Positions 35,248 to 61,089 of a stretch of 64,000 nucleotides of DNA are shown here, in pieces. Position 1 is the stretch's first letter; each line of letters opens with the position of its first letter. This DNA comes from a virus. Its lineage: Duplodnaviria; Caudoviricetes. The stretch lies in IMG/VR virus record IMGVR_UViG_3300037067_018433; one strand, 5' to 3'. The translations under genes and the position numbers were made by a program. The notes beneath the pieces were generated by a model. That model did not search any database. It was not told where the DNA came from and saw only the letters and a program-made list of their open reading frames with translations.

Positions 35248-36090
35248 TCAGACGATCCAGTGGATCACGATGCAGCCGGTCGAGCTCCCCCAGGACGACG
35301 ACATGCTCCCGTAGTAGTCAAGCATCTGATCCTGGATCGTGTACTTGTACGACCGGTAGGTGTCCTGGGTCCAGGTGTTCGGTGTAATCAACACGTCCGG
35401 CATGTGGCAGCTCTCCTGCGGATCGGGGTCGCCGTTGATCGCAAGCTCATCGCTGTCGCAGTCACCGATGCCCCACGCCTGCTGAGCGATATTCCCGCGC
35501 GTGCAGTCCTCGTCGGCCACGTTGATCGTCCACACGCAGTCCTGCATGTCCGTCCACGAGCGACCCGTCTCGTTTCCGGAACAGTCGGTGCTAGCGTACT
35601 CGATGATGGACAGGTCGAGGTATGTCAGCCACGTACCAACGTCCGGTTCGTTGACGACGTAGCTGTTGGCCGTGCCGACGTAGACGTACAAACCGTCCGC
35701 GGAAGTCTTGATCGAGTCCACCACCCAGCCCCAATAGATCGAGCCGCTGAAGTACGCCTCGGCACCGGTGTTCCAATCGCCGTTGACACGACTGGTGACT
35801 GCCCCGCCGATGTCGCGTACCAGAAGTTTCTTGCAGGAGTCCCAGTTCGCCTCGCCCATCGACGTGTAGTATTTGTACGAGTAGTAGTTGAGACAGATGA
35901 AGGTCTCGGAAGCCGGGAGCCGGAATCCCGGGGGATCCAGCGCATCGTCGACCACGGGCGCCGCGGACAGGCCCGTCAGATCGAACGACGCATCGATGGC
36001 GGCCTGGGGAGACCCGACCACAGGCACCTCCCACTGAGCGAACACCGGCGAACACAGCAGCACAACGAGGGCGAACACCAACTTCTTCAT
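35248..36090 (-). CDS. Secreted acidic/Cys-containing protein
   Basis: Signal peptide MKKLVFALVVLLCSPVFA; SD AAGGAG. Confidence 0.75.
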   Translation of the reverse strand: MKKLVFALVVLLCSPVFAQWEVPVVGSPQAAIDASFDLTGLSAAPVVDDALDPPGFRLPASETFICLNYYSYKYYTSMGEANWDSCKKLLVRDIGGAVTSRVNGDWNTGAEAYFSGSIYWGWVVDSIKTSADGLYVYVGTANSYVVNEPDVGTWLTYLDLSIIEYASTDCSGNETGRSWTDMQDCVWTINVADEDCTRGNIAQQAWGIGDCDSDELAINGDPDPQESCHMPDVLITPNTWTQDTYRSYKYTIQDQMLDYYGSMSSSWGSSTGCIVIHWIV

Positions 36091-36153
36091 GCTCTCTCCT
36101 TCTTCCGGGGAACCCCCGGATTAGCCCGGCTCCGCCATGGAACCGGATCTACG

Positions 36154-36195
36154 AAAATGAAGCGGCCCCCGGGACCTGTCCCCGAGGGCCGCTTC
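36154..36195 (-). terminator. Intrinsic terminator closing the RNA cluster
   Basis: GAAGCGGCC...GGCCGCTTC stem followed by ATTTT on the minus strand. Confidence 0.7.
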
Positions 36196-36331
36196 GTGGT
36201 TTCGAGTGTTGAAGGTTCTCCAAGAATCCGCCGGCGACAGGTGCCGGCTTCTCCACGCTGAACTTGGACTCAGAGCCCTTTCTGGGGGTTGAGTTTCGTG
36301 TCGCACAACGTGGGAACGCGATCACGAACGG

Positions 36332-36555
36332 TGGCGCCCGATGGTATCGAGCCATCCCTGGGGACTACTAGGACGAGGGCTGCCGAGTCGAACGGCTCAT
36401 CATTCTATCTGGAGGGGTGATCTACGCAACATTACGCCGTCAGCAACTGCTCCCTGGGAGGTACCTCAGTTGTGGAGGTAGACGTCGTTCACCCAGTCAA
36501 CCGTCACCCAATCCGTCCCTCGCTCGTTCATCCGTGCTCACCTGAGCTGGGCGCC
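36332..36555 (-). ncRNA. tRNA-shaped 224-nt RNA with a nested second tRNA-like element
   Basis: GGCGCCC/GGGCGCC-A-CC acceptor, GCTC/GAGC D stem, GATGG-CTCGATA-CCATC T arm; inner GCGAGGG/CCCTCGT stem and GCCG-TTCGACT-CGGC arm. Confidence 0.55.
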
Positions 36556-36804
36556 GGACCGGGGAGGGCCGAAACGCTTCGGTCAGTCCCCGGTCTTCAA
36601 AGTCCATGGGCGTTGAGCCATCGAGTGCGCCCTTTGCTTTCGACGGGCTAGGATGAGCCCCACGATGATCGACTGGAGATGGCTCTCCAAAACGTCGTCG
36701 ATCTTACCCTCGCTCGTCTGGGCACCGCAATGCACGGTGTCCCGGGGTATCTCCGCCAAGCGTCCCTGGTGGAGCGTCAGCTGTCGCGGCAGCTGCTGTT
36801 TGGA

Positions 36805-36879
36805 TCGAGGTGGTGGGACTCGAACCCACGGTGAAACGCGCTCCCAAAGCGCGTGGCATCGCCGCTAGCCAACACCTCG
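36805..36879 (-). tRNA. tRNA-Pro(UGG)
   Basis: CGAGGTG/CACCTCG acceptor, CGCGC-TTTGGGA-GCGCG anticodon arm, GTGGG-TTCGAGT-CCCAC T arm, A73. Confidence 0.9.
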
Positions 36880-37011
36880 GTCGGTAGATCTTGCAGGTCG
36901 CAATCCCGTAGCGGATCTACCTTGCTCCTCCTGTTTGCATCTCCTAGGCGATGCACCAGTTGTCCTAGTAACAACCGTGGGATCCCGGGGAGCATTCCCG
37001 AATCCCTGTCG

Positions 37012-37397
37012 TGGAGGTGTGGGGAATCGAACCCCAGTCCACCTGGCTTTGGATCGAGGTCGTTCACGGGCGTGTCCAGCTTCATGACCGCCAGCCCGCT
37101 GGCTGACTGGCGACCGGTAGACGTCTCGATTGTCGCTCTCCGCCGACATCACCAAACGGAGAGTAACGCCACCTGTTCATGACAAGGCTGCCCGATCCCG
37201 GTAACCCGGATCGGAGCCCCGCTCGGTGCCGCTGTTTAGGCGGCGGCCGCGACCGGCGCGAACGCCGGTGCACGACGATCCGAGAGGCGAACGACGTTGT
37301 CGTTGGCACTTGAGGTTGCCGCGAGTTTGATGGGCTACGCAGCCTGCCCAGCCCGCACCTGTTCACCGCTGTCCAAGTGTCGAAACCGATCACCCCC
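37012..37397 (-). ncRNA. ssrA: tmRNA
   Basis: 5' GGGGGTGATCGGTTTCGAC, 3' GGGGTTCGATTCCCCACACCTCCA, G3.U70 pair; tag ANDNVVRLSDRRAPAFAPVAAAA* at 37307..37236. Confidence 0.95.
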
Positions 37398-37615
37398 AGA
37401 GGCGCCACCCAACCGTCGGGCGCCCATCGACATGGTAGCTGCGAACTACCTTGCACGTTCAGTTGTCAGAGACCAACTGCCCGATGGTACAGAAAGTGGA
37501 GGCACCCGGCAAGGTGCTTTGAGGCGCTTGCCTGCTGAAGCCCGACCCTGGGCCCAGGGCGCCGGGTGCCCCCGCTAGCCGGCGACCAAAGTTCTCTTCG
37601 GTGCCTTGCGACCGG

Positions 37616-37810
37616 CTAGTCCCGGATGACACGGTCCGCCGGCCACCAGCCGACGGTCTTGATCCTCACGGACCCGGGTCCGGAAAACCCGGGCATGGGG
37701 TCCTGGTAGTCGACGACTTCCCTCGCGTACGAGTCCAGCGGCTGCTCGTCGCGTTCCGGGAGCATCGGCAGTCTCCGCACCATCTTCGTGACCAGGTCCT
37801 TGTTGCTCAT
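37616..37810 (-). CDS. Small hypothetical protein
   Basis: ATGA coupling to the upstream gene. Confidence 0.5.
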   Translation of the reverse strand: MSNKDLVTKMVRRLPMLPERDEQPLDSYAREVVDYQDPMPGFSGPGSVRIKTVGWWPADRVIRD

Positions 37811-38073
37811 GTCTTCTTCAACTCCTCGTTGCAGCGGGTGGCGAGTTCGTAGTACGCCTTGCACCACGTCTCCTTGTCCGCCACCTCGTCCTTCGGCAGG
37901 TTCCCCGCCTTGTTGAACGCGTAGTAGGCCGTGCCCAGCAGGTCGTTCTTGTCCTGGATGACCTTCTTGGCCGCATCCAGGTTGTCCTCGAGCTGGAGAG
38001 CGTAGGCCTGAAGAGCCCGGACCACCAGCGCGGTGTTCAACTGCGCCTTCAGCGTCACTTCGTCGACCATCAC
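37807..38073 (-). CDS. Small helical hypothetical protein
   Basis: SD GGAGG; coupled. Confidence 0.65.
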   Translation of the reverse strand: MMVDEVTLKAQLNTALVVRALQAYALQLEDNLDAAKKVIQDKNDLLGTAYYAFNKAGNLPKDEVADKETWCKAYYELATRCNEELKKT

Positions 38074-38264
38074 AACCTCCGCGGGAGCACCAACTCCCTC
38101 ATCAGCGCGGCGTCCGACCCGGGCAGGTAGGTTCCCTGGGAATCCCTCCTCGGCGTCCAGCCGCCATCGTCCTCCGGGCGTGCGGCCTCGTCAAACACCA
38201 GGAGCGGATCTTCGGCCGCGGACTGGGCGTCCGCGAGTACGTCGTCCCAGATGTCACGTGGCAT
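38070..38264 (-). CDS. Small hypothetical protein
   Basis: Fills the gap with overlaps at both ends. Confidence 0.5.
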   Translation of the reverse strand: MPRDIWDDVLADAQSAAEDPLLVFDEAARPEDDGGWTPRRDSQGTYLPGSDAALMRELVLPRRL

Positions 38265-39162
38265 CGACGGGGGCTTCCTTGGGCTCGACCTTCTCCTGCT
38301 TCATCTCGCGCTTCTCGTCGTGCTTCTCGCGCCACATCGGGTCCTCCCAGCGCACCGGATTCCCCGCCGTCTTGGGGTCCTGCTCCGCGGCCTTCGCCGC
38401 TTCCACCGCGGCCTTCGCCGCGTTCCGCCACTGCGGAGGCACGCGGTCAACAGGGCCCTTCCAGGTGCGGCTGTCCGCCTCCGGCTGCTGCACGACGCGC
38501 CGCAGTCCGAACTCGTCGACCTCGACCGCCGCGCGGTGGTAGCTGATCTCCACCATGCCGGACGGGCTGGCGATGATCTTGGCGGCGCGCTGGCGCCGGC
38601 TCACCGCCAGCTTGCCGACGAGCCCGTCGACCTGGTAGCTCGGCGGGCAGCTGCCCGACCAGTTGGAGATGACGATCAGCCGGCGGCCGGCGACGAGCCG
38701 CTGCACGAACTCGTCGTCCACGTCCGCCTTCAGCAGCATCGCATCCGGGATGCCCGGGGGCACGACGAAGCCCGGGGCGCGGTACAGCTTGTTCGCCTTC
38801 TCCGCCAGCCGGATCAGGACGCTGTCCGTCAGCTCGACGGGGTGCGAGACGGTCCCCTCGTACTGCACCACGGTCATCGTACCCTCGTGGTCGAAGCAGA
38901 ACTCGAACGCCTCGTCGATGGACGCGGTGAAGAACTGGACGTAGACCGAGTTCGTCCCCGGCTGGTCGTAGATGACGCAGCTGCCGGTCTCGAAGCCCGG
39001 GATGCCGCGCAGTTCCTTCTCGACGATTTCCGAGGCGGCTTCCTTCGTGGGGACGTCGAGCACCAACAGCTTGTCGCGCCGCTGGCCGATGGGCCGGAAC
39101 TTGACGTGCAGATCCTGCAGCGCCCTCGCGGTCGAGTTCTCGTTCTTGAACGTGACTCCCAT
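38254..39162 (-). CDS. Hypothetical protein
   Basis: SD AAGGAGG before the ATG at 39162. Confidence 0.75.
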   Translation of the reverse strand: MGVTFKNENSTARALQDLHVKFRPIGQRRDKLLVLDVPTKEAASEIVEKELRGIPGFETGSCVIYDQPGTNSVYVQFFTASIDEAFEFCFDHEGTMTVVQYEGTVSHPVELTDSVLIRLAEKANKLYRAPGFVVPPGIPDAMLLKADVDDEFVQRLVAGRRLIVISNWSGSCPPSYQVDGLVGKLAVSRRQRAAKIIASPSGMVEISYHRAAVEVDEFGLRRVVQQPEADSRTWKGPVDRVPPQWRNAAKAAVEAAKAAEQDPKTAGNPVRWEDPMWREKHDEKREMKQEKVEPKEAPVDAT

Positions 39163-39237
39163 GAGATCCTCCTTGGCTTGCGCCACTGTTGACCAGCGGA
39201 CAGCCCGCTGGCTGACGGTATTGCTCCGTCTCATTTA

Positions 39238-39268: not shown

Positions 39269-39279
39269 TCCCCACCATG

Positions 39280-39294
39280 TGCTATGCTGAGCCC
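39280..39294 (+). promoter_or_regulatory. Extended -10 promoter, leaderless
   Basis: TG-C-TATGCT-GAGCCC-ATG. Confidence 0.6.
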
Positions 39295-40686
39295 ATGGAG
39301 CTTGGGGTTCGGCATCTTCGGAAGCTGGCGGAGTTCGCGCCGGGGCTCCCCAGCCGCTCGCGGTACGAGCCGTTGCCGTCGGTTACCGCGCCCAAGCCCT
39401 TCAAGCTGAACATCCAGCGGCACGTCGCCGACCGAGCCGGGGAGCACCTAGATCTTCGGTTGGTGGATCCCGACACGGGGCTCGCGCACAGCTGGGCGCT
39501 CAAGAAGTGGCCCGCTCCGGGTACCGGGACCTACGCCCCTCAACAGCCGACGCATGAAGGGGCGTACGCCGGATGGAGTGGTACGATCCCCACCGGTACG
39601 TACGGAGCTGGGACGGTTGAGAGCCAGCGGCTGGAGGACGCTGAGGTCATCCACAGTTCACCCAACGAGCTGCGCTTCAACCTGTACAGCGGCAAGATCC
39701 CCGAGCAGCTCGTGCTCAAGCGGACGTCGGGTGACCGGATGTGGGTGCTGCACAACGCCACGCCCTCACGCCACACGAAGCACTGGGCCGAACTGCTGCC
39801 GAACTACAAGCCCTCTCTCGGCCACGTGCAGTTCAAGGCGCTCGACCCTACCAAGTCCGACGAAATCTGGCAGCCCAAGATCGACGGGGCCCATGGCATC
39901 GTGGTAGCGGAAGGCGGGAAACCCGTCCGGCTGTTCTCCTATCGCGATGCCAAGAACGAGACTGGATTGATCGAGCACACGCACAAGCTGCCGGAGTGGT
40001 GGAAGAACGTGGCGCCCGCCGGCCTCAAGCCGACGGTGTTGCGCGCGGAGATCACCGGACGTGACTCCTCCGGTAAGCCGGTGCCCAGCGCCACCATCGG
40101 CGGCATCCTCAACGCCACCGTTCCCCACAGCCGCCAGATGCAGACGGATCAAGGGGTGAACCTGCGGCTCATCGGGTTCCGCGTGCAGCGGGAGGACGGC
40201 AAGGTCGTTCCGGACAACGCGCCGTACAAGCCGCAGTTGTCCACCATCCGTAGACTGGCCGCCGACATTCCCGTGCTCTACCCGATGCCGACCGCAGAGA
40301 ACCCCCAGCAGAAGGCCAAGCTGCTGGCGGATGTCGCCTCCGGCCACCACAGCCTCACCGGAGAGGGTGTGGTTGTGATCAAGCCACAGGGCACGTACAA
40401 GGCGCCCATCACCGAGACGCACGACGTCACCATCCGCAAGATTCTGCCGAGCATCAGGGAGGGGGAGGCCGGGGGTTTCGAGTTCAGCTGGGGCGATGGC
40501 CCCGTAGTAGGCGTGGTGGGCACCGGGTTCACCCACGCCCAGAAGCGCGAGATGCTGGCGAAGCCCGCGGACTGGGAGGGACGTGTGGTCAAGGTCACCG
40601 CCAAGCAGCGGTTCCCGAGCGGCGCTCTCCGCGGGGCGGCGTACGTCCAGGAGCACGAATCGAAGTCCCCGACGCCCTTTGGCTAG
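39295..40686 (+). CDS. LigD-type 3'-phosphoesterase domain fused to an ATP-dependent DNA ligase
   Basis: QRH.A.R..HLDLRL...SWA...H..Y...G.IP.G.YGAGTV phosphoesterase motif; ligase QPKIDG, EGVV, OB-fold VGTGFT...GALR. Confidence 0.85.
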   Translation: MELGVRHLRKLAEFAPGLPSRSRYEPLPSVTAPKPFKLNIQRHVADRAGEHLDLRLVDPDTGLAHSWALKKWPAPGTGTYAPQQPTHEGAYAGWSGTIPTGTYGAGTVESQRLEDAEVIHSSPNELRFNLYSGKIPEQLVLKRTSGDRMWVLHNATPSRHTKHWAELLPNYKPSLGHVQFKALDPTKSDEIWQPKIDGAHGIVVAEGGKPVRLFSYRDAKNETGLIEHTHKLPEWWKNVAPAGLKPTVLRAEITGRDSSGKPVPSATIGGILNATVPHSRQMQTDQGVNLRLIGFRVQREDGKVVPDNAPYKPQLSTIRRLAADIPVLYPMPTAENPQQKAKLLADVASGHHSLTGEGVVVIKPQGTYKAPITETHDVTIRKILPSIREGEAGGFEFSWGDGPVVGVVGTGFTHAQKREMLAKPADWEGRVVKVTAKQRFPSGALRGAAYVQEHESKSPTPFG

Positions 40687-59670: not shown

Positions 59671-59783
59671 CGGAGGCTCCTTTCGTGACCCGCCGGTGCG
59701 CAACCATCGAGGCTGCCACTTGGACGTGGGGTCTGTCAACGAAAAAAATGGACCGAAATCGAAACGCAGAGCGCCAGCAAGTT

Positions 59784-59814
59784 TCTTATGCCTATTTTGA
59801 TCTTTTATTTTCGC
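59784..59814 (-). promoter_or_regulatory. Putative phage-specific promoter of the replication operon
   Basis: GCGAAAA-N15-GGCATAAGA. Confidence 0.7.
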
Positions 59815-59817
59815 GCG

Positions 59818-59853
59818 TTGACACGGTGCGGCGCCCGCGTCTAGTCTTGGATT
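59818..59853 (+). promoter_or_regulatory. Sigma70-like promoter, leaderless
   Basis: TTGACA-N18-TAGTCT-TGGATT-ATG. Confidence 0.7.
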
Positions 59854-61089
59854 ATGGAGACGTTGGACATCCAGGATGACCACGGTGCGCTGCTGGCGCT
59901 TGTCGGCGACGCGATCCCCGAGAACATCAAGCAGGCGAGCATCACCGACCTGGACGTCAACCAGGCACCGGACGACCTGTTCGCCCTGGTCATCGAGCGT
60001 GCGGGGCAGCCGCCGCTCCGGAAGTTCGCGTGCAGCGACGGGCCTACCACCTACGTTTCGGCGCTGTACCTCACGCAGACCTACCGGCACCTGACGCCGG
60101 CCGCGGTCAAGACCGCAGCGAAGAGCCTCCTGCAGGCGGCGGACGTCTACCGCGTGACGCTGCCCGCGGATGTGGCGAAGTTGGCGGCGACCGGTGGCCT
60201 GTCGCAGTTCGAGGAGCCCGAGACCAAGGTCGCGGGCCTGGACGACATGCTGAAGGTGATCCGCGAGCGGCGGCAGGAGAACAAGCTGCGGAAGACCGCC
60301 GACCTGACGGGAACCGAGCTCACTCCTGTGGGCACCCCACGTCCACCAACGGACGCCGTCAAGAAGCTGGCGGCCGTCGACAACCACGTATCGTGGTCCG
60401 GACCGACGGTCGAAGAGATCGAGCCGCCCCTTCGCCTCGTCGAGCTCGGCGTCAAGACCGCCGGTGGCAACACCTATCCTCTGGACAAGGTCCGTGACCT
60501 GATGGACCTCGAGCGCGCGTTCGCCCACAACATCACGGCCATCCCCGTGGACGACCGGGTGAAGGTGGCGTGTGCGGTGGTCGAGCGCGAGCAGGACATG
60601 GGCCTCCCGTCGGGCGCCCCCGTGCTCAAGTACGCGGGCAAGAGCTTCCGTTCCGCCCGTGAGCTGGAGCAGGCGCTGTGGTCACGCGTCACCATGGGCA
60701 AGCGCGCGCACAAGGACACCACCGGCTACAACAAGCTGGCGGCGATCAAAGACCCCCAGGAGTACGCCGAGAAGCTGGCGGCCGTCGACCGCTCCATCGG
60801 CCTGGATCGGGAGTGGGACCGCGGGCTCGAGGACCCGTGGGCCGCGACGCTGTCCGCGAAGAAGACCGCCGAGGTCATCTACAACCAGAACGGGGTGTTC
60901 GTCTCCGACCACCAGCTGGAGCGCATGGCCGCCAAGGAACCGAAGAAGGTGCTGTGCGCGATCCTCGACGCCGACATGGTGGAGGAATTCATCAAGGACC
61001 CGGTCGGTGTCTTCCGGTCGATGCCCGAGCCGATGAAGCAGTCCATTGGGCGTCTGGCCAACGACCCGCTGTGGCGGGCTGATCCGTAG
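59854..61089 (+). CDS. KxA-repeat protein (putative scaffold/inner-head protein)
   Basis: 14 of 28 Lys are in K-x-A (hand count). Confidence 0.8.
   Translation: METLDIQDDHGALLALVGDAIPENIKQASITDLDVNQAPDDLFALVIERAGQPPLRKFACSDGPTTYVSALYLTQTYRHLTPAAVKTAAKSLLQAADVYRVTLPADVAKLAATGGLSQFEEPETKVAGLDDMLKVIRERRQENKLRKTADLTGTELTPVGTPRPPTDAVKKLAAVDNHVSWSGPTVEEIEPPLRLVELGVKTAGGNTYPLDKVRDLMDLERAFAHNITAIPVDDRVKVACAVVEREQDMGLPSGAPVLKYAGKSFRSARELEQALWSRVTMGKRAHKDTTGYNKLAAIKDPQEYAEKLAAVDRSIGLDREWDRGLEDPWAATLSAKKTAEVIYNQNGVFVSDHQLERMAAKEPKKVLCAILDADMVEEFIKDPVGVFRSMPEPMKQSIGRLANDPLWRADP

What the first reader, a model, noticed from the sequence alone, without database searches (positions are those of the whole stretch)
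36332..36555. tRNA inside a tRNA: nested tRNA mimic of 224 nt
Seen on the minus strand: an outer shell with perfect 7-bp acceptor GGCGCCC/GGGCGCC, A73 then CC, a GCTC-AGGT-GAGC mini D arm and T arm GATGG-CTCGATA-CCATC. Its anticodon loop is replaced by about 160 nt. That insert has its own 7-bp stem GCGAGGG/CCCTCGT, a canonical T loop GCCG-TTCGACT-CGGC and a long interrupted hairpin (GGGTGA/TCACCC, TCTAC/GTAGA, CAACTG/CAGTTG). A 21-codon ORF (MNERGTDWVTVDWVNDVYLHN) runs through it. The topology is tmRNA-like but lacks G3.U70. Inference: a new tRNA mimic, such as an anticodon-nuclease decoy, a Y-RNA-like or non-Ala tmRNA-like molecule, or an RNA cut out by tRNA-processing enzymes.
Basis: partly seen in the sequence, partly recalled or inferred. 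Interest (0 to 1): 0.75.

Follow-up and report, generated by a model that had tools for sequence, protein, structure and literature searches.

The report
Phage tRNA-shaped RNA with swappable core
A giant bacterial virus carries, just after its tmRNA and tRNA genes, a conserved RNA that has the outline of a tRNA but holds about 165 unrelated, fast-changing bases where the codon-reading loop should be; it resembles the still unexplained stable RNAs of phage T4, and its function is unknown.

Summary
The window is a novel high-GC jumbo phage of about 204 kb. The element lies in a non-coding RNA operon: tmRNA, tRNA-Pro, a 250-nt structured module, this element, a hairpin, then a strong terminator.

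One related phage contig, L005, carries the same element. Its tRNA-like shell is 51/55 nt identical, against 66% identity at four-fold sites. The helix that stands in for the anticodon stem changed on both sides at 5 of 6 pairs. The three T-loop changes keep U55, C56, R57 and A58.

The roughly 160-nt interior is no more alike between the two phages than shuffled sequence, yet it keeps its length.

- **Supported:** the outer tRNA mimic.
- **Not supported:** the inner tRNA, the 21-codon ORF and the tmRNA-like reading.
- **No match:** no Rfam family matches, and ARAGORN does not call the element.

Best reading: a non-decoding, tRNA-derived scaffold RNA with a swappable cargo, probably matured by RNase P and CCA-type enzymes. 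This is the architecture and operon position of T4 RNAC. Processing and function are untested.

Earlier notes of this scan describe similar tRNA-shell RNAs in other phage genomes. I did not verify those notes.

The parts
36549..36555 (-). 5' strand of the 7-bp acceptor-type stem
   Evidence: Perfectly complementary to 36333-36339; identical in L005; pair probability 1.0 in both sequences.
36536..36547 (-). Reduced D-type hairpin (4 bp, 4-nt loop AGGU; CGGU in L005), one base after the acceptor strand
   Evidence: The stem is identical in both phages, the only change is loop position 1, and the GG is kept.
36530..36533 (-). 5' strand of the anticodon-stem analogue (GGAU), two bases (AC) after the D hairpin
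   Evidence: Pairs with 36362-36365. In L005 a 6-bp helix of different sequence sits in the same register between the conserved AC and CCAGG; 5 of 6 positions changed on both sides.
36366..36529 (-). Variable interior (cargo), 164 nt; 154 nt in L005
   Evidence: No more similar to the L005 interior than shuffled sequence (global 95 identical vs null 94.7; local score 23 vs null 25.4). Under a shell constraint it folds as closing stem + long irregular arm + short 3' hairpin in both.
36382..36396 (-). Inner hairpin with T-loop-like 7-nt loop (window only)
   Evidence: The L005 counterpart has a different stem and a loop that can zip up, so T-loop identity is not conserved.
36362..36365 (-). 3' strand of the anticodon-stem analogue (GUCC)
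36357..36361 (-). 5-nt variable-loop equivalent CCAGG
   Evidence: Identical in both phages.
36340..36356 (-). T arm: 5-bp stem, 7-nt loop
   Evidence: Stem identical in L005. Loop CUCGAUA vs UUCAACA differs at positions 54, 57 (purine kept) and 59, keeping U55 C56 A58. Pair probability is 0.11 in the window and 1.0 in L005.
36330..36339 (-). 3' acceptor strand, A73 (36332) and encoded CC (36331-36330)
   Evidence: ACCG is identical in L005.
36557..36595 (-). 5'-flanking hairpin ending 1 nt before the acceptor stem
   Evidence: The stem differs in L005 with 2 pairs changed on both sides.
36295..36328 (-). 3'-flanking hairpin starting 3 nt after A73, with a conserved 13-nt loop
   Evidence: 4 pairs changed on both sides between the two phages, loop conserved.
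36159..36195 (-). Intrinsic terminator ending the RNA operon
   Evidence: 16-bp G+C-rich stem plus T tract; kept in L005 with compensatory changes.
36556..36804 (-). Upstream ~250-nt multi-hairpin RNA module between tRNA-Pro and the element
   Evidence: RNAalifold on window + L005: 68 pairs, 11 changed on both sides. The core 36600-36730 is ~97% identical.
36805..36879 (-). tRNA-Pro(UGG), same operon
   Evidence: ARAGORN and Rfam, 50 bits. Absent from L005.
37009..37397 (-). Phage tmRNA, first gene of the operon
   Evidence: ARAGORN and Rfam, 92 bits. The core is nearly identical in L005 and L007.

Best explanation
The 224-nt stretch is a real non-coding RNA gene, or module, of a jumbo phage's tmRNA/tRNA operon. 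It is a tRNA-derived shell: a 7-bp acceptor stem, a reduced D hairpin, a 4-6-bp anticodon-stem analogue, a 5-nt variable loop, a T arm with T-loop consensus, and A73-CC. In place of an anticodon loop the shell carries a branched domain of ~155-165 nt whose sequence is completely different in the only known relative. It cannot decode. Proposed mechanism (inferred, not shown): it is transcribed with the tmRNA and tRNA-Pro and ends at the terminator at 36195-36159. The 12-bp acceptor/T-arm stack with ACC lets host RNase P cut before G36555, and 3' trimming plus CCA completion finish the end after 36332-36330. This releases a stable RNA with tRNA-type ends. The shell serves as a processing and stability scaffold, and the variable interior is the working, exchangeable part with an unknown target. 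The interior evolves like the hypervariable genes on either side, so a role in dealing with the host is my guess.
For: Shown: all shell elements are present and occur more often than chance predicts. The element lies in a gene-free 1.5-kb island on the same strand as the tmRNA and tRNA-Pro and upstream of a strong terminator. A syntenic relative (L005) keeps the shell at 51/55 nt, while four-fold sites of an 84%-identical orthologue are only 66% identical. The anticodon-stem analogue is replaced pair for pair, 5 of 6 positions changed on both sides, in a register fixed by conserved flanks. The T-loop changes keep U55, C56, R57 and A58. In L005 the unconstrained MFE is exactly this cloverleaf-like shell, with pair probabilities 0.74-1.0. 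RNAalifold recovers the acceptor, D and T helices. The interiors are unrelated in sequence but similar in length, 164 vs 154 nt. No anticodon loop can be drawn, and no tRNA caller or Rfam model accepts the element. The analogue was checked here: T4 rnaC lies at the distal end of the T4 tRNA operon, and its fold pairs the two ends next to a canonical T arm with ~100 nt in between. The T4 tRNA transcript is the precursor of eight tRNAs plus the species I and II RNAs and terminates after species I (PMC2330249); their function is still unknown (PMC9697503). Established knowledge: bacterial RNase P and CCA-adding enzymes recognise the acceptor/T-arm stack and the RCC(A) end.
Against: Only two sequences carry the element. 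The acceptor, D and T stems are identical in both, so they show conservation, not covariation. In the window the nearest-neighbour model prefers a rod-like fold by 7.1 kcal/mol and gives the T arm p=0.11 and the anticodon-stem analogue p~0. Fold stability is unremarkable. The D arm is abnormal: one base instead of two before it and a 4-nt loop, so a tRNA-like elbow is uncertain. Structured hairpins abut both ends within 1-3 nt, which fits a domain of a larger RNA as well as it fits an excised molecule. No RNA ends, expression data or partner proteins were obtained.
Confidence: 0.55

Rival explanations
1. The tRNA-like shell is one domain of a single large (~650 nt) ornate phage RNA running from the end of tRNA-Pro to the terminator, comparable in kind to GOLLD or ROOL. 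It is not cut out.
For: The whole stretch 36150-36804 is non-coding and built of helices that covary between the two phages (11/68 and 9/47 pairs changed on both sides). Hairpins abut the shell within 1-3 nt. GOLLD and ROOL are phage RNAs found near tRNA islands, and tRNAs sometimes sit in the GOLLD linker (bioRxiv 10.1101/2024.12.08.627333).
Against: No GOLLD or ROOL score even at E<=10. No covarying long-range helix joining the modules was found. A complete acceptor/T-arm stack with A73-CC is exactly what tRNA-end enzymes cut. In T4 the comparable RNAs are released from the operon transcript (PMC2330249).
Confidence: 0.2
2. The shell is only a processing signal (a 't-element' or mascRNA-type punctuation mark) that defines the 3' end of the conserved upstream module and the 5' end of what follows. 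The excised piece itself is a by-product.
For: The upstream module 36600-36730 is far more conserved (~97%) than the element's interior. tRNA-like punctuation is established in plant mitochondria (PMC1920247) and for MALAT1/mascRNA (Rfam RF01684).
Against: A punctuation mark needs no 160-nt interior of preserved length closed by its own helices in both phages. tRNA-Pro, where present, already supplies processing sites.
Confidence: 0.1
3. It is a decaying tRNA gene that suffered an insertion, or a chance fold in G+C-rich spacer.
For: The D arm looks like a common tRNA D arm with deletions. No tRNA finder calls the element. The fold z-score is unremarkable.
Against: The shell is 93% identical against 66% at four-fold sites. 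Helix replacement is pair for pair. The T-loop changes follow tRNA rules. The descriptor expectation is ~0.001 for this island.
Confidence: 0.05
4. It acts at the DNA level: a phage attachment site copying the 3' end of a host tRNA, or inverted repeats bounding a recombination cassette.
For: The 3' block (T arm plus acceptor strand) is the part of a tRNA gene that attP sites usually copy. The shell stems are conserved in sequence rather than covarying. The interior looks exchanged.
Against: No integrase or recombinase family was found in the proteins scanned around it. An att site explains neither the conserved 5' acceptor strand and D hairpin nor the compensating anticodon-stem analogue. The phage has the replication and structural make-up of a large virulent-type phage.
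Confidence: 0.03
5. It is a second, non-alanine tmRNA-like molecule, or a carrier of the 21-codon ORF.
For: The topology (acceptor, reduced D element, large insert, T arm) is that of a tmRNA. An ATG-initiated 21-codon frame exists in the window.
Against: C3-G70 instead of G3.U70. The frame is absent in L005. There is no Rfam tmRNA score on the element. A bona fide tmRNA lies 450 nt upstream.
Confidence: 0.02

Closest known systems
Phage T4 stable RNAs RNAC (species 1, 139 nt) and RNAD (species 2, 119 nt)
   Same: They are non-decoding small RNAs encoded at the distal end of a phage tRNA operon just before its terminator, and are made from the same precursor as the tRNAs (PMC2330249). In rnaC the two ends pair next to a canonical T arm, with ~100 nt of hairpins between. 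Their function is unknown (PMC9697503).
   Different: There is no sequence similarity. This element is longer (224 nt), has a perfect 7-bp acceptor stem (rnaC's has two U.U mismatches), and keeps a D hairpin, an anticodon-stem analogue and a variable loop. It follows a tmRNA, and its interior is exchanged between relatives. RNAD showed no tRNA-like shell in my fold.
tRNA-like domain of tmRNA (Rfam RF00023)
   Same: The 5' and 3' ends form an acceptor stem stacked on a T arm, the D element is reduced, and a large insert replaces the anticodon arm.
   Different: There is no G3.U70, no conserved reading frame and no tmRNA model score. The interior is not conserved, whereas the neighbouring true tmRNA core is ~99% identical between the phages.
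tRNA-like processing signals: plant mitochondrial t-elements (PMC1920247), mascRNA (RF01684)
   Same: They are tRNA-shaped structures without decoding function, embedded in longer transcripts and cut by tRNA-end enzymes.
   Different: Those are about tRNA-sized or smaller and carry no large inserted domain. The mascRNA model scores only on the true tRNA-Pro here.
GOLLD and ROOL large ornate phage RNAs (RF01998, RF03087)
   Same: They are phage-borne, lie beside tRNA genes, are richly structured and of unknown function; GOLLD sometimes carries a tRNA in a linker.
   Different: There is no model match. Here the tRNA-like part is the outer frame and the variable part is inside, not the reverse.
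YrlA bacterial Y RNAs (RF02553)
   Same: They are tRNA mimics with T- and D-type arms joined to a second domain.
   Different: In YrlA (from my own knowledge) the free ends form the Ro-binding stem and the acceptor-like stem is capped, which is the opposite topology. The only YrlA score (14.9 bits vs 69 gathering) lies on tRNA-Pro, not on the element.

Membership tests
tRNA (RF00005) | Acceptor stem stacked on a 5-bp T arm with a 7-nt T loop, discriminator base | tested here: met
tRNA (RF00005) | Anticodon stem closed by a 7-nt anticodon loop; normal D arm; recognised by tRNA models | tested here: not met
   The helix after the D hairpin leads into 154-164 nt. The D loop is 4 nt. ARAGORN does not call it with default settings, with or without introns allowed, and there is no RF00005 score at E<=10.
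tmRNA (RF00023) | G3.U70 alanine identity pair | tested here: not met
   C3-G70 in both phages.
tmRNA (RF00023) | Conserved tag reading frame and pseudoknots; covariance-model score | tested here: not met
   The ORF is not shared, the interior is unrelated, and there is no model score.
T4 RNAC-type stable RNAs of phage tRNA operons | Encoded at the end of a phage tRNA-type operon, before the terminator, on the same strand | tested here: met
   for the window; and PMC2330249 for T4.
T4 RNAC-type stable RNAs of phage tRNA operons | Terminal helix abutting a canonical T arm, non-tRNA interior | tested here: met
   rnaC; element.
T4 RNAC-type stable RNAs of phage tRNA operons | Release from the precursor and accumulation as a stable RNA | not testable with these tools
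T4 RNAC-type stable RNAs of phage tRNA operons | Sequence homology to rnaC or rnaD | tested here: not met
   Distant blastn of the element against 50,697 phage records, T4 included, found nothing. The resemblance is architectural only.
GOLLD / ROOL | Match to the family covariance model | tested here: not met
YrlA Y RNA | Match to RF02553 | tested here: not met
   No match on the element.
YrlA Y RNA | Ro (TROVE) gene nearby | tested here: inconclusive
   No TROVE domain among the ~20 window proteins scanned with Pfam. That scan covers only part of one 64-kb window of a 204-kb genome.
Group I intron-bearing bacterial tRNA | Intron core recognised by RF00028; exons that join into an anticodon stem-loop | tested here: not met
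   No intron model score. The bases flanking the insert give no U33/R37-type loop (read).

The most novel reading that the evidence does not exclude
The shell is a portable tRNA-type expression and processing cassette used by a broad, uncatalogued class of phage RNAs. Recombination at the invariant shell swaps cargo domains between phages, and the cargos act as RNA decoys or inhibitors aimed at host defences or RNA-handling enzymes. That would make this an RNA-level hypervariable counter-defence locus, sitting here between two hypervariable protein genes.
Probability: 0.15. Interest if true: 0.85.

Novelty: new variant of a known kind. Interest (0 to 1): 0.6.

Why it matters
Phage T4's RNAC and RNAD have had no assigned function for some fifty years. 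This element shows the same design in an unrelated, high-G+C jumbo phage: tRNA-type ends around a non-tRNA body, at the end of a tRNA-type operon. It adds two informative facts. The shell is under strong purifying selection, and the body is exchanged wholesale between close relatives while keeping its size. That separates a scaffold from a cargo and points to where function should be sought. If such RNAs are common in phages, as unchecked earlier notes of this scan suggest, they are a missing Rfam family. They would also be a natural counterpart of the engineered tRNA scaffold used to express recombinant RNAs.

Tried and rejected
Homologue searches that found nothing:
- blastn, near and distant, against phage records.
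- Exact-pattern scans of viral contigs, metagenome contigs and GTDB genome contigs.
- Protein-seeded scans of viral contigs with three neighbouring genes.
- The DNA polymerase gave only remote, unrelated contigs.
- A full HMMER search of 1.84 billion representatives with the downstream gene found only the window protein and the L005 orthologue.

Other identical or partial copies gave no extra information:
- L001 and L006 are 100% identical to the window.
- A JGI variant could not be fetched.
- L007, a third relative, ends inside the tmRNA.

Ideas dropped:
- Group I intron, YrlA, GOLLD or ROOL: no model scores.
- A conserved small ORF: absent in L005.
- Cognate pairing between the interior and the phage-specific spacer: RNAduplex energies equal the shuffled controls.
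- Enrichment of GGUGA or CCUCC words in the interior: weak and post hoc.
- An apparent shared word order in the 3' part of the interiors: not above shuffled alignments.
- ARAGORN at lowered thresholds gives only noise across the island.

Full report
**Setting.** The window has ~65% G+C. It encodes a family-A DNA polymerase, a DnaB-type helicase and a head protein related to phage families, and most of its ORFs have no Pfam or PHROG match. Its proteins occur on contigs of up to 203,683 bp, so it is a novel jumbo phage. The nearest phage polymerases are about 30% identical. Between the genes ending at 37616 and starting at 36090 lies about 1.5 kb without a credible ORF. On the minus strand this island holds a tmRNA (37397-37009, Rfam 92 bits) and tRNA-Pro(UGG) (36879-36805). 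It ends in a 16-bp intrinsic terminator at 36195-36159. The finding lies between tRNA-Pro and the terminator, on the same strand.

**Observation.** These include the 21-codon frame and C3-G70 in place of G3.U70. I scanned the window for a T arm (5 bp, loop NTCRANN) directly followed by a 7-mer that is perfectly complementary to a 7-mer up to 420 nt upstream. This found three sites: tRNA-Pro, the element, and 59971-59693. Dinucleotide shuffles give 0.2 such sites per window on both strands, or about 0.001 for this island and strand. I loosened the loop pattern to admit the observed C54, so the figure is somewhat generous. Neither ARAGORN (default, with introns allowed, or at relaxed thresholds) nor any of 4227 Rfam models recognises the element, even at E<=10 on a 271-nt slice. 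Its folding energy is ordinary (z -0.6 to -1.4).

**A relative.** Most searches found no homologue (see Tried and rejected). The upstream 326-aa protein has one 38%-identical relative on a 12.4-kb Logan contig, L005, which is syntenic. It carries the same four genes, a 1.47-kb gene-free gap with a tmRNA bearing the same tag, then the orthologues of the downstream genes. Orthologues range from 38% to 86% amino-acid identity. Four-fold degenerate sites of an 84%-identical protein are 66% identical. This gives a baseline for unconstrained change. A third phage, L007, shares the tmRNA, but its 1-kb contig stops before the element.

**What is conserved.** The alignment of the two RNA islands is a mosaic.
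- **5' shell block.** Acceptor strand, one A, D hairpin and AC total 22 nt and differ at one D-loop base.
- **3' shell block.** CCAGG, the T arm, the acceptor strand and ACCG total 33 nt and differ at three T-loop positions.
- **Overall.** That makes 51/55 identical, and none of the 32 stem bases changed. At 66% neutral identity the chance of this is about 3e-6 (my binomial estimate).
- **T loop.** The changes (CUCGAUA to UUCAACA) fall at positions 54, 57 and 59. They keep U55, C56, a purine at 57 and A58, which is the tRNA T-loop rule.
- **Anticodon-stem analogue.** Between the conserved AC and CCAGG the window has GGAU paired with GUCC, and L005 has UAGGUG paired with CACCUA. In the same register, 5 of 6 positions changed on both sides and still pair. 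I estimate the chance of such complementarity at fixed positions in both sequences at about 1e-4.
- **Folds.** The unconstrained MFE of the L005 element is exactly acceptor + D hairpin + this helix + T arm, with pair probabilities 0.74-1.0. RNAalifold on the pair returns the acceptor, D and T helices. A construct with the interior replaced by a tetraloop folds as a cloverleaf-like shell in both.

**What is not conserved.** The interior is 164 nt in the window and 154 nt in L005. It is no more similar than shuffled sequence: 95 identical positions against 94.7 +/- 3.5 in global alignment, and a local score of 23 against 25.4 +/- 4.7. With neutral sites still 66% identical, this points to replacement or strongly accelerated change, not drift. 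The two flanking protein genes are also the most divergent of the locus, at 38% and 41% identity. With the shell imposed, both interiors fold as a G+C-rich closing stem, a long irregular arm and a short hairpin near the 3' side. The topology is therefore similar. The window's inner T loop has no true counterpart, because the L005 loop can zip into a 6-bp stem with a triloop. The 21-codon frame has no equivalent in L005. The 'tRNA inside a tRNA' and peptide ideas therefore rest on one sequence only.

**Evidence against.** For the window sequence the energy model prefers a rod-like fold that uses the T-arm strands. It scores -88.4 kcal/mol against -81.3 for the shell fold, with the T arm at p=0.11 and the anticodon-stem analogue at p~0. 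That rod is not available to L005, so the shell is the only shared structure, but the window RNA might switch or misfold. The D arm is abnormal, with one linker base and a 4-nt loop. The acceptor, D and T stems show conservation but no covariation, and there are only two sequences.

**Context.** The element is one of a chain of structured modules.
- The 250 nt upstream (36804-36556) fold into about six helices, with 11 of 68 pairs changed on both sides, around a ~130-nt core that is ~97% identical.
- A hairpin ends 1 nt before the acceptor stem.
- A hairpin with a conserved 13-nt loop and four compensated pairs starts 3 nt after A73.
- The terminator also covaries.
- No integrase, Ro, CCA-adding, RtcB or SmpB family was detected in the ~20 window proteins scanned.
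- A LigD-phosphoesterase-containing protein lies 3 kb away.

**Interpretation.** The shell has everything that bacterial RNase P and 3'-end/CCA enzymes need: a 12-bp acceptor/T stack, a T loop and A73-CC (established knowledge). It sits in an operon whose other products need those enzymes. I therefore favour a released, stable, non-decoding tRNA-like RNA whose shell is a scaffold and whose interior is an exchangeable cargo (0.55). The main rival is that it stays as a domain of a ~650-nt ornate RNA (0.2). Lesser rivals are a pure punctuation signal, a pseudogene, a DNA-level site and a tmRNA-like molecule.

**Comparison with known RNAs.** The closest published analogue is T4 RNAC. It lies last in the T4 tRNA operon. 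My fold pairs its two ends next to a canonical T arm, with ~100 nt between. It is cut from the tRNA precursor transcript (PMC2330249), and its function remains unknown (PMC9697503). There is no sequence similarity, so this is the same kind of RNA, not the same family. The topology also matches the tmRNA tRNA-like domain, but the defining tmRNA features fail. GOLLD and ROOL share the phage and tRNA neighbourhood but not the models.

**Earlier scan notes.** A word search returned several follow-up reports on other phage genomes. They describe tRNA shells with large, variable inserts and also name T4 RNAC/RNAD as closest known. Those notes are unchecked and I could not compare sequences. They suggest the kind is recurrent, and I do not count them as evidence. 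Notes on this genome had flagged the island as a possible polycistronic RNA precursor, and my covariation results agree.

**Verdict.** The finding is a real, conserved tRNA-shaped phage RNA with a swappable core. It is a new variant of a known but unexplained kind. Processing and function are unproven.

Noticed in passing
window 36556-36804 (-); L005 2634-2886: A ~250-nt multi-hairpin RNA module between tRNA-Pro and the element. Its ~130-nt core (36600-36730) is ~97% identical between phages whose neutral sites are 66% identical. Variable hairpins keep pairing through 11 double changes. No Rfam match. It may be a separate new ncRNA or part of one large RNA.
   Followed up: partly
window 36295-36328 (-); L005 3108-3141: A hairpin 3 nt after the element, with four pairs changed on both sides and a conserved 13-nt loop. 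A further conserved 6-bp hairpin lies at about 36230-36250, before the terminator.
   Followed up: partly
window 37009-37397 (-); L005 2066-2455; L007 ~480-1003: The phage tmRNA core, including the 23-residue tag frame, is ~99% identical in three phages. The tRNA-like domain stems differ with compensation (acceptor GGGGGUG vs GGGGAUG; different T stems). In L007 the 5' tRNA-like part looks quite different. L005 lacks tRNA-Pro and has 178 nt of other structured sequence in its place.
   Followed up: partly
window 36707-36726 vs 36517-36555 (-): The element's first nine bases (with one change) and an exact 11-mer from its inner stem recur together, without the D hairpin, at the start of the conserved upstream core. 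This could be a partial duplication or an alternative pairing partner for the 3' acceptor strand (7 bp with one G.U in the window, one mismatch in L005).
   Followed up: partly
window 59693-59971 (-): A second hit of the acceptor-plus-T-arm descriptor (loop CUCGAUG, span 279 nt). Its 5' strand lies antisense to a plus-strand gene, and the T-arm-like hairpin sits just upstream of a ribosome-binding site. Probably chance.
   Followed up: no
window 35248-36090 (-) and 38254-39234 (-): The two protein genes flanking the RNA island are the most divergent of the locus (41% and 38% identity to L005, against 69-86% for neighbours). They have no Pfam or PHROG family and essentially no other relatives among 15 billion proteins. 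The RNA island sits in a hypervariable region.
   Followed up: partly
window 37476-37621 (-): About 145 nt upstream of the tmRNA, including a hairpin straddling the stop codon of the 64-aa gene, are almost invariant in three phages. This may be the operon's promoter or leader. No sigma-70-type promoter was detected in 36000-37900.
   Followed up: no
window 39277-40686 (+): A 469-aa protein with a LigD 3'-phosphoesterase domain lies 3 kb from the RNA island. A first-stage note reads it as an end-healing/ligase fusion. Any link to RNA repair is speculative.
   Followed up: no
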